From assembly GCA_964016885.1 (NCBI GenBank), contig OZ024740.1, forward strand, positions 94,612,001 through 94,676,000: a stretch of DNA of 64,000 nt, read 5' to 3'. Numbering within the stretch: position 1 is the stretch's first letter; every line of letters begins with the position of its first letter. Below are positions 53,927-62,329 of this stretch, in pieces. The position numbers and the translations under genes are program-made. The notes under the pieces are model-generated. The model worked only from the letters and a program-made list of their open reading frames with translations, did not search any database and was not told the origin of the DNA. The stretch is from Eledone cirrhosa (taxonomy: Eukaryota).

Positions 53927-56900
53927 ATATATAGGCTTTGTCTTAGTAACTTTGTGGTTCAATGCATGGGGATGCAGAACAATAATATGAGAGACGTAAA
54001 ATAAGAAAATTATAAAATTAACTTACTTAATAAAATGTCACTCCAACTAATTAGTTTTTGAAAGGGAATAAACATACTTTCCGAAGAAACGTACGGAGAA
54101 GCCTTTCGTCATCAGGGAAGTCTATTCTCAGGTAAGTTTCCAGGCAATACGTGGACACAGGGAACTTATTAAAAATAATTCAGTGGATGGAAAAAAGCAA
54201 AGCCTGGACCAAATTCCAAGCCATTGAGAAAATCACTGACTACCGCGTCGGTGGCAAATTCAAAAGAATCAATCACGTGACATCGAGGGCAATCGGTGAA
54301 GAGAGGTTTGTTAAGAAGACAGCGGCCGGATCGTTACTAAAGTAGTAGTTTTGGCAAATTTTTGCTCGACAAATAATTTGGAGATAATTATTAATAATTC
54401 GTATATCTAATAACATATATATACACAGATGCATACTTATGCTAGCAAATATATAGGTTTTGTCTTAGTAACTTTGTGGTTCAATGCATGGGGATGCAGA
54501 ACAATAATATGAGAGACGTAAAATAAGAAAATTATAAAATTAACTTACTTACTTAAATTTCACTCCAACTAATTAGTTTCTGAAAGGGAATAAACATACT
54601 TTCCGAAGAAACGTACGGAGAAGCATTTCGTCATCAGGGAAGTCTATTCTCAGCTAAGTTTCCAGGCAATACGTGGACACAGGGAACTTATCAAAAATAA
54701 TTCAGTGAATGGAAAAAAGCAAAGCCTGGACTAAATTCCAAGCCATTGAGAAAATCACTGACTACTGCGTCGGTGGCAAATTCAAAAGAATCAATCACGT
54801 GACGTCGCGGTCAATCGGTGAAGAGTGGTTTGTTAAGAAGACAGCGGCCGGACTGTTACTAAAGTAGCAGTTATGGCAAATTTTCGCTCGACAAATAATT
54901 TGGAGATATTTATAAAGAATTCGTATATCTAATAACATATATATACATAGATGCATACTTATGCTAGCAAATATATAGGTTTTGTCTTAGTAACTTTGTG
55001 GTTCAATGCATGGGGATGTAGAACAATAACATGAGAGACGTAAAATAAGAAAATTATAAAATTAACTTACTTACTTAAATTTCACTCCAACTAATTAGTT
55101 TCTGAAAGGGAATAAACATACTTCCGAAGAAACGTACGGAGAAGCCTTTCGTCATCAAGGAAATCTATTCTCAGCAAAGTTTCCAGGCAATACGTGGACA
55201 CAAGGAACTTATTAAAAATAATTCAGTGGATGGAAAAAAGCAAAGCGTGGACTAAATTACAAGCCATTGAGAAAATCACTGCCTACTGCGTCGGTGGCAA
55301 ATTCAAAAGAATCAATCACGTGGCATCGAGGTCGTTCGGCGAAGAGAGGTTTGTTAAGAAGACAGCGGCCGGATTGTTACTAAAGTAGCAGTTTTGGCCA
55401 AGTTTTTGCTCGACAAATAATTTGGAAATATTTATAAAAATTCGTATATCTAATAACATATATATACATAGATGCATACTTATGCTAGCAAATATATACG
55501 TTTTGTCTTAGTAACTTTGTGGTTCAATGCATGGGGATGCAGAACAATAACATGAGAGACGTAAAATTATAAAATTATAAAATTAACTTACATACTAAAA
55601 TTTCACTCCAACTAATTAGTTTCTGAAAGGGAATACACATACTTCCGAAGAAACGTACGGAGAAGCCTTTCGTCATCAGGGAAATCTATTATCAGCTAAG
55701 TTTCCAGGCAATACGTGGACACAAGGAACTTATTAAAAATAATTCAGTGGATGGAAAAAAGCAAAGCGTGGACTAAATTACAAGCCATTGAGAAGATCAC
55801 TGCCTACCGCGTCGGTGGCAAATTCAAAAGAATCAATCACGTGACATCGATGTCAATCGGTGAAGAGTGATTTGTTAAGGAGACAGCAGCCGGACTGTTA
55901 CTAGAGTAGCAGTGTTGGCCAATTTTTGCTCGACAAATAATTTGGAGATAATTATAAATAATTCGTATATCTAATAACATATATATACACAGATGCATAT
56001 TTATGCTAGCAAATATATAGGTTTTGTCTTAACAACTTTGTGGTTCAATGCATGGGTATGCAGAACAATAATATGAGAGACGTAAAATTTGAAAATTATA
56101 AACTTAACTTACATACTAAAATTTCACTCCAACTAATTAGTTTCTGAAAGGGAATAAACATACTTCCGAAGAAACGTACGGAGAAGCCTTTCGTCATCAA
56201 GGAAATCTATTCTCAGCTAAGTTTCCAGGCAATACGTGGACACAAGGAACTTATTAAAAATAATTCAGTGGATGGAAAAAAGCAAAGCGTGGACTAAATT
56301 ACAAGCCATTGAGAAAATCACTGCCTACTGCGTCGGTGGCAAATTCAAAAGAATCAATCACGTGACGTCGCGGTCAATCGGTGAAGAGTGGTTTGTTAAG
56401 GAGACAGCGGCCGGACTGTTACTAAAGGAGCAGTTTTGGCCAATTTTTGCTCGACAAATAATTTGGAGATAATTATAAATAATTAGTATATCTAATAAAA
56501 TATATATACACAGATGCATACATATACTGGCAAATATATAGGTTTTGTCTTAGTAACTTTGTGGTTCAATGCATGGGGATGCAGAACAATAATATGAGAG
56601 ACGTAAAATAAGAAAATTATAAAATTAACTTACTTACTTAAATTTAACTCCAACTAATTAGTTTCTGAAAGGGAATGAACATACTTTCCGAAGAAACGTA
56701 CGGAGAAGCATTTCGTCATCAGGGAAGTCTATACTCAGCTAAGTTTCCAGGCAATACGTGGACACAGGGAACTTATTAAACATAATTCAGTGGATGGAAA
56801 AAAGCAAGGCGTGGACTACATTCCAAGCCATTGAGAAAATCACTGTCTACCGCGTCGGTGGCAAATTCAAAAGAATCAATCACGTGACATCGAGGTCAAT

Positions 56901-59900
56901 CGGTGAAGAGTGGTTTGTTAAGAAGTCAGCGGCCGGACAGTTACTAAAGGAGAATTTTTGGCAAATTTTTGCTCGACAAATAATTTGGAGATAATTATAA
57001 AGAATTCGTATATCTAATAACATATATATACACAGATGCATACTTATGCTAGCAAATATATACGTTTTGTCTTAGTAACTTTGTGGTTCAATGCATGGGG
57101 ATGTAGAACAATAATATGAGAGATGTAAAATTATAAAATTATAAAATTAACTTAATTACTAAAATTTCACTCCAACTAATTTGTTTCTGAAAGGGAATAA
57201 ACATACTTCCCGAAGAAATGTACGGAGAAGCCTTTCGTCATCAGGGAATTCTATTCTCAGCTAAGTTTCCAGGCAATACGTGGACACAGGGAACTTATTA
57301 AAAATAATTAAGTGGATAGAAAAAGCAAGGCGTGGACTAAATTCCAAGCCATTGAGAAAATCACTGCCTACCCCGTCGGTGGCAAATTCAAAAGAATCAA
57401 TCACGTGACATCGAGGGCAATCGGTGAAGAGTGGTTTGTTAAGAAGACAGCGGCCAGACTGTTACTAAAGTAGAATTTTTGGCAAATTTTTGCTCGACAA
57501 ATAATTTGGAGATAATTATAAAGAATTCGTATATCTAATAACATATATATACACAGATGCATACTTATGCTAGCAAATATATAGGTTTTGTCTTAGTAAC
57601 TTTGTGGTTCAATGCACAGGGATGCAGAACAATAATATGAGAGACGTAAAATTAGAAAATTGTAAAATTAACTTAATTACTAAAATTTCACTCCAACTAA
57701 TTAGTTTCTGAAAGGGAATAAACATACTTCCCGAAGAAACGTACGGAGAAGCCTTTCGTCATCAGGGAATTCTATTGTCAGCTAAGTTTCCAGGCAATAC
57801 GTGGACACAGGGAACTTATTAAAAATAATTCAGTGGATGGAAAAAGCAAGGCGTGGACTAAATTCCAAGCCATTGAGAAAATCAATGCCTACCGCGTCGG
57901 TGGCAAATTCAAAAGAATCAATCACGTGACATCGATGTCAATCGGTGAAGAGTGGTTTGTTAAGGAGACAGCAGCCGGACTGTTACTAAAGTAGCAGTTT
58001 TGGCCAATTTTTGCTCGACAAATAATTTGGAGATAATTATAAATAATTAGTATATCTAATAACATATATATACACATATGCATACTTATGCAAGCAAATA
58101 TATAGGTTTCGTCTTAATAACTTTGTGGTTCAATGCATGGGGATGCAGAACAATAATATGAGAGACGTAAAATAAGAAAATTATTAAATTAACTTACTTA
58201 CTAAAATTTCACTCCAACTAATTAGTTTCTGAAAGGGAATAAACATACTTCCGAAGAAACGTACGGAGAAGCCTTTCGTCATCAGGGAAGGCTATTCTCA
58301 GCTAAGTTTCCAGGCAATACGTGGACACAGGGAACTTATTAAACATAATTCAGTGGATGGAAAAAAGCAAGGCGTGGACTACATTCCAAGCCATTGAGAA
58401 AATCACTGTCTACCGCGTCGGTGGCAAATTCAAAAGAATCAATCACGTGACATCGAGGTCAATCGGTGAAGAGTGGTTTGTTAAGAAGCCAGCGGCCGGA
58501 CAGTTACTAAAGGAGAATTTTTGGCAAATTTTTGCTCGACAAATAATTTGGAGATAATTATAAAGAATTCGTATATCTAATAACATATATATACACAGAT
58601 GCATACTTATGCTAGCAAATATATACGTTTTGTCTTAGTAACTTTGTGGTTCAATGCATGGGGATGTAGAACAATAATATGAGAGATGTAAAATTATAAA
58701 ATTATAAAATTAACTTAATTACTAAAATTTCACTCCAACTAATTTGTTTCTGAAAGGGAATAAACATACTTCCCGAAGAAATGTACGGAGAAGCCTTTCG
58801 TCATCAGGGAATTCTATTCTCAGCTAAGTTTCCAGGCAATACGTGGACACAGGGAACTTATTAAAAATAATTAAGTGGATAGAAAAAGCAAGGCGTGGAC
58901 TAAATTCCAAGCCATTGAGAAAATCACTGCCTACCCCGTCGGTGGCAAATTCAAAAGAATCAATCACGTGACATCGAGGGCAATCGGTGAAGAGTGGTTT
59001 GTTAAGAAGACAGCGGCCGGACTGTTACTAAAGTAGAATTTTTGGCAAATTTTTGCTCGACAAATAATTTGGAGATAATTATAAAGAATTCGTATATCTA
59101 ATAACATATATATACACAGATGCATACTTATGCTAGCAAATATATAGGTTTTGTCTTAGTAACTTTGTGGTTCAATGCACAGGGATGCAGAACAATAATA
59201 TGAGAGACGTAAAATTAGAAAATTGTAAAATTAACTTAATTACTAAAATTTCACTCCAACTAATTAGTTTCTGAAAGGGAATAAACATACTTCCCGAAGA
59301 AACGTACGGAGAAGCCTTTCGTCATCAGGGAATTCTATTCTCAGCTAAGTTTCCAGGCAATACGTGGACACAGGGAACTTATTAAAAATAATTAAGTGGA
59401 TGGAAAAAGCAAGGCGTGGACTAAATTCCAAGCCATTGAGAAAATCACTGCCTACTGCGTCGGTGGCAAATTCAAAAGAATCAATCACATGACATCGAGG
59501 TCGTTCGGTGAAGAGAGGTTTGTTAAGAAGACAGCGGCCGGATTGTTACTAAAGTAGCAGTTTTGGCCTAGTTTTTGCTCGACAAATAATTTGGAGTTAA
59601 TTATAAAGAATTAGTATATCTAATAACATATATATACACAGATGCATACTTATGCTAGCAAATATATAGGTTTTGTCTTAGTAACTTTGTGGTTCAATGC
59701 ATGGGGAAGCAGAACAATAATATGAGAGACGTAAAATTATAAAATTATAAAATTAACTTAATTACTAAAATTTCACTCCAACTAATTAGTTTCTGAAAGG
59801 GAATAAACATACTTCCCGAAGAAACGTACGGAGAAGCCTTTCGTCATCAGGGAAGACTATTCTCAGATAAGTTTCCAGGCAATACGTGGACACAGGGAAC

Positions 59901-62123: not shown

Positions 62124-62329
62124 CCATCCACTGAATTATTTTTAATAAGTGCCCTGGGTCCACGTTTTGCCTGGAAACTTAGCTGAGAATTGTCTTCCCT
62201 GATGACGAAAGGCTTCTCAGTACGTTTCTTCGGAAAGTATGTTTATTCCCTTTCAGAAACTTATTAGTTGGAGTGAAATTTTAGTAAGTAAGTTAATTTT
62301 ACAATTTTCTTATATTACGTCTCTCATAT
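62124..62329. repeat. Inverted partial satellite unit capping the array
   Basis: Reverse complement of the unit segment ATATGAGAGACG...TCAGTGGATGGA. It includes CTGATGACGAAA at 62199-62210. Confidence 0.92.

What the first reader, a model, noticed from the sequence alone, without database searches (positions are those of the whole stretch)
53927..62329. 521-bp satellite whose units carry a hammerhead-like ribozyme core in an extended stem: candidate retrozyme/circRNA array
Seen: on the minus strand the units read GAATAGAC-TTCC-CTGATGA-C-GAAA-GG...CT-TC-GGAA-agtat-GTTTATTC. That is a CUGAUGA/GAAA core with a UC site, a 4-bp stem I, a bulge and 8 more bp (GAATAGAC/GTTTATTC), with further CTGA/TCAG and TTAG/CTAA pairings outward. 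The stem III loop contains the palindrome CGTACG, and stem II is reduced to one C. A few units have core changes (CTTGATGA at ~55150 and ~56195, CTGGTGA at ~61930). Established: tandem genomic repeats with one type-I hammerhead per monomer (newt satellite 2, Schistosoma Sm-alpha, metazoan non-LTR retrozymes) yield monomer and circular RNAs and are linked to PLEs, which are abundant here. Inference: this may be an unusually large retrozyme-like satellite with a stem-II-less hammerhead, possibly working as a dimer.
Basis: partly seen in the sequence, partly recalled or inferred. Interest (0 to 1): 0.82.

Follow-up and report, generated by a model that had tools for sequence, protein, structure and literature searches.

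The report
Pseudoknotted hammerhead retrozyme hitchhiking on Penelope
The 521-base repeat is one long copy of a non-coding jumping element found over ten thousand times in this animal genome; each unit holds a hammerhead ribozyme fold backed by paired mutations (not the shrunken fold first proposed) that is predicted to cut the RNA in pairs, and the element likely borrows the enzyme of a Penelope-like retrotransposon to spread.

Summary
The array is real: 16 minus-strand units of 520-522 bp plus an inverted 5' piece beside (TA)n. It is one insertion of a dispersed family with at least 11,871 exact motif hits. Its 'GAAA' is the 5' arm of helix II and reads GTAA, GCAA or GGAA in other subfamilies; its cut site lies in a UUCG hairpin. 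The real type I hammerhead ends about 50 nt further on: CUGANGA, a long two-part helix II, GAAA, a palindromic helix III, GUU cut, stem I, plus a pseudoknot. Insertions show the Penelope-like (PLE) signature: 175 of 212 outer 3' ends at two fixed sites, (TA)n targets, inversions, more-than-unit length. One intact-ORF PLE family shares a short motif in register with its own fixed end, so it is a candidate helper. Cleavage, transcription and circles are untested. The window array is decaying (4 of 16 ribozymes fully intact). Verdict: new variant of a known kind (non-LTR retrozyme).

The parts
53926..62123 (-). Main tandem array, about 15.7 units of 520-522 bp, 16 hammerhead cores; no ORF of 150 aa or more
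62123..62329 (+). Inverted 5' piece of the same insertion, ending at fixed end A; holds a 17th hammerhead (core at 62199, palindrome changed)
62326..62519 (.). (TA)n microsatellite abutting the fixed end; likely the target site
60818..60907 (-). One fully intact hammerhead (example unit; the other three fully intact ones have cores at 59850, 59328, 58285)
60903..60907 (-). Pseudoknot 5' strand GAGAA, just upstream of stem I
60894..60899 (-). Stem I, 5' strand (ACUUCC in this subfamily)
60887..60893 (-). Core CUGAUGA (C3-A9); only position 7 varies between subfamilies
60880..60885 (-).
60874..60878 (-). Pseudoknot 3' strand UUCUC in the internal loop of helix II
60851..60873 (-).
60838..60843 (-). 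Helix IIa, 3' arm CCUUUC, followed by an unpaired A at 60837 facing the C at 60886
60823..60836 (-). Core GAAA, palindromic helix III (CUAAUUAG) and UU; predicted cut between 60823 and 60822
60818..60822 (-). Stem I, 3' strand GGAGU; predicted 5' end of the unit-length RNA
60762..60766 (-). Fixed 3' end A of dispersed insertions, 59 nt after the cut; inferred reverse-transcription start site
60643..60647 (-). Fixed 3' end B, 178 nt after the cut; inferred second reverse-transcription start site
60621..60639 (-). CUCC...GAG motif just after end B, shared in register with autonomous PLE family A
60520..60538 (-). 19-nt block invariant among subfamily modes, with a TCACGTGA palindrome; possible internal promoter element (untested)

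Best explanation
This array is one long, decaying insertion of a non-coding retroelement family whose units carry a covarying type I hammerhead fold (long two-part helix II, pseudoknot, palindromic helix III) that is predicted to cut tandem transcripts as a dimer into unit-length, likely circular RNAs, which are likely copied back into (TA)n DNA by the enzyme of an autonomous Penelope-like element. Shown: the array, the dispersed family, the fold's covariation, the fixed ends, TA flanks, inversions, more-than-unit insertions. Inferred steps: (1) tandem copies are transcribed; (2) two neighbouring hammerheads pair through AACUAAUUAGUU and cut after GUU, the pseudoknot holding stems I and II parallel; (3) the monomer is ligated to a circle; (4) a PLE RT/GIY-YIG protein nicks (TA)n, often on both strands, and starts reverse transcription at site A or B, running round the template for more than one unit; (5) at this locus the insertion then grew by DNA-level duplication and is losing ribozyme integrity. 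About 0.92 for 'PLE-mobilised hammerhead retroelement', about 0.65 for cleavage leading to circles, about 0.55 that family A or a close relative is the helper.
For: Fold: RNAalifold, given no structure, predicts helices IIa and IIb. The full model is 89.3% paired against 80.9% shuffled, 143 double-change cells against 49.5, covariation 0.276 against 0.133, all 0/500; slid controls 39-55% paired. Helix IIa pair 2 takes AU/CG/UA/GC and is paired in 122 of 122 parsed copies. On a tree of the non-ribozyme part (51 rows) I count five separate double changes in helix IIa, G-C to U-A twice independently. Pseudoknot pair G-C becomes A-U in 8 of 55 rows (S6b, S6c). Stem I gains a base on both sides in two subfamilies. 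Of 58 copies picked only by an upstream motif, 55 have both halves, 50 an intact core; position 7 varies in 10 of 55, other CUGANGA positions in at most 2. The palindrome gives no hairpin alone but a -10.8 kcal/mol duplex. Mobility: 175 of 212 outer 3' ends at two sites, 180 of 212 TA-flanked, 71 of 142 insertions inverted, 100 of 142 longer than one unit, matching PLE features in PMC8557442 and PMC11167929. Helper: family A (743-aa RT + GIY-YIG ORF) also has two fixed TA-flanked ends (25 of 35 hits), and the best local match of 6 of 7 subfamily monomers to its 5' region is end B on its first end. Whole-monomer circular consensus has compensated helices outside the ribozyme.
Against: No cleavage or RNA data. 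The base of helix II is a C.A or A.A mismatch in 118 of 122 copies and the cut triplet is GUU; both would be expected to slow cleavage (recalled), though a U.U at that place is reported in an axolotl hammerhead and occurs in an intact PLE family here. Isolated ribozymes mostly fold by MFE into an inactive CUGAU/GUUGG pairing, and the pseudoknot 5' strand can pair with an upstream U-rich arm instead. Two of five whole-structure measures do not beat shuffles (67/500, 496/500). Pseudoknot support rests on one compensated pair in two related subfamilies. Only 1 of 9 Xenopus retrozyme dimers cleaved in vitro; the anole PLE hammerhead needs protein and is dispensable for insertion in vitro. The helper match is short: 0, 0, 1, 9, 16, 20 of 300 shuffles as high, one subfamily not matching (91/300), the window's own subfamily weakest; BLAST found no long homology; only 2 PLE families were examined. 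Window-type monomers fold only weakly as circles (z -1.5, -0.8). In the window 12 of 16 cores and 4 of 16 whole ribozymes are intact.
Confidence: 0.75

Rival explanations
1. Same element and same fold, but no free circle: the hammerhead is slow or protein-assisted, and the PLE enzyme copies uncut tandem transcripts; more-than-unit insertions come from multimeric linear RNA.
For: The anole PLE hammerhead cuts only with protein and unprocessed RNA is the main insertion substrate (PMC11167929). Mismatch at the base of helix II and GUU site. Neighbouring units within an insertion are not always closer to each other than to outside copies (L024 0.969 against 0.974; L069 0.956 against 0.965).
Against: Core, palindrome and stem I are kept across subfamilies 71-92% identical; several insertions have near-identical or privately similar units (L016 0.998, L213 0.979 against 0.924); 5 of 8 monomers fold as circles at z -3.0 to -6.8 (12 shuffles each).
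Confidence: 0.17
2. The units are only the pseudo-LTR of an unidentified autonomous PLE, left as truncated tandem remains, not an independent replicon.
For: Xenopus retrozymes are related to PLE pLTRs; PLE-like ends; PLE ORF fragments lie next to some copies (L057, L060).
Against: Units join head to tail with no ORF between; 76 cut-to-cut monomers of 507-594 bp were recovered; the L057 junction breaks the endonuclease before its end, so it looks like an insertion; no long homology to two intact PLE families.
Confidence: 0.05
3. One reading: a stem-II-less hammerhead CUGAUGA-C-GAAA cutting after GUUUCUUC.
For: The letters allow the pairing in the window's subfamily; 2,003 genome hits of CTGATGANGAAAGG against 43 for the control.
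Against: Its GAAA is absent in 39 of 39 S4 and 33 of 33 S5 rows and in 47 of 55 unbiased copies; its pairs do not covary; every change in that GAAA is compensated in the downstream CCUUUC.
Confidence: 0.02
4. Ordinary satellite DNA with a chance ribozyme-like motif.
For: Block duplications inside the array (units 99.6-99.8% identical) and 4 array-private columns show local DNA-level amplification; no Rfam hammerhead match.
Against: Thousands of dispersed short insertions with fixed ends and strong covariation.
Confidence: 0.01

Closest known systems
Metazoan non-LTR retrozymes (coral, mussel, axolotl; newt satellite 2, Schistosoma Sm-alpha): PMC7229834, PMC7761336, bioRxiv 10.64898/2026.07.22.740005
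   Same: Non-coding, low-GC tandem units, one type I hammerhead per unit, dimers to long multimers, PLEs in the same genome.
   Different: Units of 507-594 bp against about 170-400 nt in PMC7229834 (but within 51-972 bp of the preprint); 48-50-nt two-part helix II with a pseudoknot in place of the usual loop 1-loop 2 contact; two fixed internal 3' ends and a motif shared with a candidate helper, whereas PMC7761336 says metazoan retrozymes show no motif pointing to the helper. RNA not shown here.
PLE hammerheads (min-HHR and palindromic helix III variants): PMC4209133
   Same: Extra base after A9, G10.1-C11.1 pair, long helix II, 4-6 bp helix I, palindromic helix III implying dimers.
   Different: Helix III insert is 8 nt, not absent or 2-4 nt; helix II has an internal loop and second hairpin; the element has no ORF.
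Endonuclease-positive PLE insertions (Neptune/Nematis-type; Poseidon PAc mechanism): PMC8557442, PMC11167929
   Same: (TA)n targets, partial tandems, inverted 5'-truncated copy, two internal reverse-transcription starts.
   Different: Non-autonomous; the two ends are 119 nt apart, not the usual 30-40 bp tail.
Pseudoknotted hammerheads, and Aedes repeat hammerheads with a 10-bp dimer helix III: PMC3088659
   Same: Watson-Crick pseudoknot between stem I side and stem II side (about 40% of examples, including human C10orf118); palindromic stem III for dimers.
   Different: Here both features sit together in one retrozyme, with the pseudoknot partner in an internal loop of an extended helix II. 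I did not see that paper's supplementary figures, which may hold similar cases.

Membership tests
Type I hammerhead ribozyme | Core CUGANGA, GAAA and UH at a three-way junction | tested here: met
   50 of 55 unbiased copies; 12 of 16 window units
Type I hammerhead ribozyme | Helix II supported by covariation | tested here: met
Type I hammerhead ribozyme | Helix I open-ended and adjacent to C3 and the cut | tested here: met
   95.2% paired, one-sided changes only in the alignment; two-sided insertions
Type I hammerhead ribozyme | Helix III, or palindrome allowing a dimer | tested here: met
   CTAATTAG in 108 of 122; duplex -10.8 kcal/mol; invariant, so no covariation evidence
Type I hammerhead ribozyme | Watson-Crick pair directly between A9 and G12 sides (10.1-11.1) | tested here: inconclusive
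   C.A or A.A precedes the first G-C pair in 118 of 122; U.U precedent
Type I hammerhead ribozyme | [quoted passage not shown] | tested here: inconclusive
   5-bp pseudoknot 93.8% paired with one compensated pair; similar pairing possible in two other repeat families
Type I hammerhead ribozyme | Self-cleavage | not testable with these tools
   needs in vitro assay
Type I hammerhead ribozyme | Match to an Rfam hammerhead model | tested here: not met
   none at gathering score or among 6 matches at E up to 10 on one unit
   8 of 55
Non-LTR retrozyme | Non-coding, low-GC tandem units with one hammerhead each | tested here: met
Non-LTR retrozyme | Dispersed copies showing retrotransposition | tested here: met
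Non-LTR retrozyme | Autonomous PLEs in the same genome | tested here: met
Non-LTR retrozyme | Accumulates as unit-length circular RNA | not testable with these tools
   no run on record as RNA was listed
Non-autonomous PLE derivative | Fixed 3' ends, ragged 5' ends, inversions, (TA)n targets | tested here: met
Non-autonomous PLE derivative | Homology to the pLTR of an autonomous PLE | tested here: inconclusive
   short in-register motif shared with family A; no long homology in 2 families examined

The most novel reading that the evidence does not exclude
A 520-590-nt structured RNA replicon with its own lineage of active subfamilies, whose hammerhead needs both a dimer and a pseudoknot that competes with an upstream hairpin (a cut-once switch that protects the circle), and which recruits a specific PLE reverse transcriptase through a short copied motif rather than by being a whole pLTR. 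That would name the cis-signal and the helper enzyme for a metazoan retrozyme and let rolling-circle retrotransposition be rebuilt in vitro.
Probability: 0.3. Interest if true: 0.75.

Novelty: new variant of a known kind. Interest (0 to 1): 0.5.

Why it matters
How animal retrozymes are copied back into the genome is inferred, not shown: a review says their repeats show no motif pointing to a helper (PMC7761336), and a 2026 preprint links them to PLEs by co-occurrence and pLTR phylogeny only. This family gives two mapped start sites, a target sequence and a candidate intact helper ORF with a matching motif, which can go straight into the published in vitro PLE assay (PMC11167929). It also adds a hammerhead architecture that Rfam misses, present in more than ten thousand copies, and an example of a retroelement insertion turning into a satellite. 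The claim that would have been startling, a natural hammerhead without stem II, does not hold.

Tried and rejected
Stem-II-less fold: rejected. CGUACG as dimer palindrome: rejected, not kept across subfamilies. Second reading with the GAAA after the UUCG loop as core: dropped, no adjacent stem I (by inspection). C/D-box or SECIS reading of CUGAUGA: considered from recall and dropped once the hammerhead fold covaried; not tested. L057 as the pLTR of the helper: rejected. PLE family B (the window's endonuclease family) as helper: no match above shuffles, 113-298 of 300. Rfam: nothing relevant. Pfam: no family for 6 of 6 flanking PLE ORF pieces. Sequencing runs: no RNA holder listed; three contig runs of unknown kind from one sample cover the unit but show no molecule ends; neither bears on expression. 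Earlier findings of the scan: none. The paper on dimeric PLE hammerheads (PMC5785218) is not held; I know it only through passages in PMC6765202. mis-anchored about 15 of 211 rows on an upstream CTGAGAA, which lowers its counts; searches are the cleaner ones.
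Full report
Observation. The minus strand of 53926-62123 is a tandem array of 520-522-bp units with 16 CUGAUGA-type cores; 15 full units average 94.6% identity. Bases 62123-62329 are an inverted piece with a 17th core, ending against (TA)n. The array holds no ORF of 150 aa, is 35% GC and matches no Rfam family at gathering score or any hammerhead model at E up to 10.

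The family. The host genome G000 has 3.0 Gb. One unit gave 3,046 candidate places, 40 scored. A 28-mer matched 357 times, control 0. Two mutually exclusive 20/21-mers from the ribozyme's 3' half matched 9,366 and 2,505 times, controls 0 (the forward count of exactly 5,000 may be a cap). I fetched 220 family-related loci, many overlapping and nearly all from contig C1, and sorted copies into nine groups (S1 = window type, S2-S5, S6a-d); the seven with full monomers are 71-92% identical between groups, with monomers of 507-594 bp.

Across subfamilies the GAAA one base after CUGANGA reads GAAA, GTAA, GCAA or GGAA. Among 58 copies chosen only by an upstream non-ribozyme motif, 55 had both halves and only 8 had that GAAA. 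The proposed cut lies in a UUCG-capped hairpin.

The supported fold. Stem I 5' strand, CUGANGA, one extra base, helix IIa (6 bp), an internal loop, hairpin IIb, an unpaired A, GAAA, the palindrome CUAAUUAG, UU, then GGAGU. RNAalifold predicted IIa and IIb unprompted, 7 of 11 pairs with double changes. The 28-pair model gave 89.3% paired, 143 double-change cells and covariation 0.276, each 0/500 shuffles; two other measures did not beat shuffles (67/500, 496/500), and slid controls fell to 39-55% paired. Because copies are related, I built a tree from the non-ribozyme part (51 rows) and counted by eye five separate double changes in helix IIa. In the core only position 7, the free one, varies (10 of 55). 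GAGAA just 5' of stem I can pair with UUCUC in the internal loop; the central G-C is A-U in 8 of 55 rows, a pseudoknot of the kind that PMC3088659 finds in about 40% of hammerheads (passages). The palindrome forms no hairpin alone but a -10.8 kcal/mol duplex, so cleavage as a dimer is predicted, as for newt and PLE hammerheads (PMC4209133, parts 1-2 of 4). Weak points: a C.A or A.A at the base of helix II in 118 of 122 copies, a GUU site, invariant helix III, and competing pairings in MFE folds.

State of the window array. Array units are slightly more different from each other (94.6%) than dispersed S1 copies are (95.5%), share four private columns and include recent block duplications. It is therefore a single founder insertion that grew locally and is not the source of the dispersed copies.

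Mobility. In 142 insertions bounded within fetched loci (long arrays are excluded by locus size; a few may be counted twice), 175 of 212 outer 3' ends fall at two sites 59 and 178 nt after the predicted cut, and 10 of the other 37 lie 9 nt from site B in S4/S5; 180 of 212 are TA-flanked. The 72 outer 5' ends are scattered (38 TA-flanked). 71 insertions contain an inversion, 46 have fixed ends on both sides, 100 exceed one unit. Partial tandems, inverted 5' copies and (TA)n targets are PLE traits (PMC8557442, passages); two internal reverse-transcription starts and nicking of both strands were shown for an anole PLE (PMC11167929, parts 1-2 of 4).

Helper. PLE-like RT and endonuclease queries gave 33,965 and 60,361 candidates, with open frames of 740-760 aa. 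Of two families examined (5 and 7 loci) neither has long homology to the unit. Family A (743 aa, RT, cysteine-rich linker, GIY-YIG; Neptune/Nematis-like by the linker described, not by a tree) has its own two fixed TA-flanked ends (25 of 35 hits), each followed by a CUCC...GAG motif. The best local alignment of 6 of 7 subfamily monomers to its 5' region puts end B on family A's first end; shuffles reached the score 0, 0, 1, 9, 16 and 20 times of 300, the seventh matched elsewhere (91/300), and family B gave nothing (alignment). This makes family A or a relative a candidate, not a proven helper.

Circle. A circular consensus fold of 32 monomers closes stem I across the cut and shows compensated helices elsewhere (no shuffle control). 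Single-sequence circular z-scores were -3.0 to -6.8 for five of eight monomers but only -0.8 to -1.5 for two S1 and one S3 (12 shuffles each; antisense also low in some). No RNA evidence exists either way.

Comparison. It works like a non-LTR retrozyme (PMC7229834, passages and one section; PMC7761336, passages; bioRxiv 10.64898/2026.07.22.740005, parts 1-3 of 5) and meets every sequence-level feature tested; cleavage and circular RNA are untested. Seven full-text searches turned up no description of this family or of a pseudoknotted, extended-helix-II hammerhead in an animal retrozyme among the papers I opened; the library lacks most subscription papers, including the main paper on dimeric PLE hammerheads, and I did not see supplementary alignments of PMC3088659, PMC4209133 or PMC7229834 that may hold similar motifs. 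A long segmented helix II is known in one plant satellite RNA (table note in PMC1636495). PMC6155905 and PMC6765202 were read as passages only.

Verdict. New variant of a known kind; interest 0.5, mainly because the mapped ends and candidate helper make retrozyme mobilisation directly testable.

Noticed in passing
L178:2580 (+), L152, L067, L065, L193:873 (+): Two or more other repeat families have hammerheads with the same plan (long two-part helix II, palindromic helix III, possible pairing of the 5' flank with the helix II loop) but different sequence; they share short motifs with this unit and may be distant relatives.
   Followed up: partly
L177, L051, L179, L229, L116: Further tandem repeats of about 470 bp and about 200 bp with short-helix-II hammerheads and palindromic helix III: more retrozyme-like families in this genome.
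   Followed up: no
window 5414-6337 (+) and 8533 (+): 3' part of a PLE ORF (weak GIY-YIG, just under the Pfam cut-off) from a family with intact 758-759-aa ORFs, and a copy of that family's hammerhead, which has U.U at the base of helix II.
   Followed up: partly
window 30276-35872 and 36364-41960 (+): Two nearly identical head-to-tail copies, 6,088 bp apart, of a LINE with a 713-aa ORF1 and an open 1,195-aa endonuclease-RT ORF2.
   Followed up: no
window 25371-30048 (-): Broken non-LTR retrotransposon RT fragments from two elements.
   Followed up: no
window 60520-60538 and each unit: A 19-nt block with a TCACGTGA palindrome is invariant among subfamily modes (7,639 exact hits); may be an internal promoter or protein-binding site.
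   Followed up: no
tree: Subfamilies form a ladder with two young tips (S5, S6) and the window's subfamily in between, like a single-master SINE lineage that split once.
   Followed up: partly
window 53926: The array's left end stops at an AT-rich spot inside the unit that is neither fixed end and has no (TA)n flank; possibly a later deletion.
   Followed up: no
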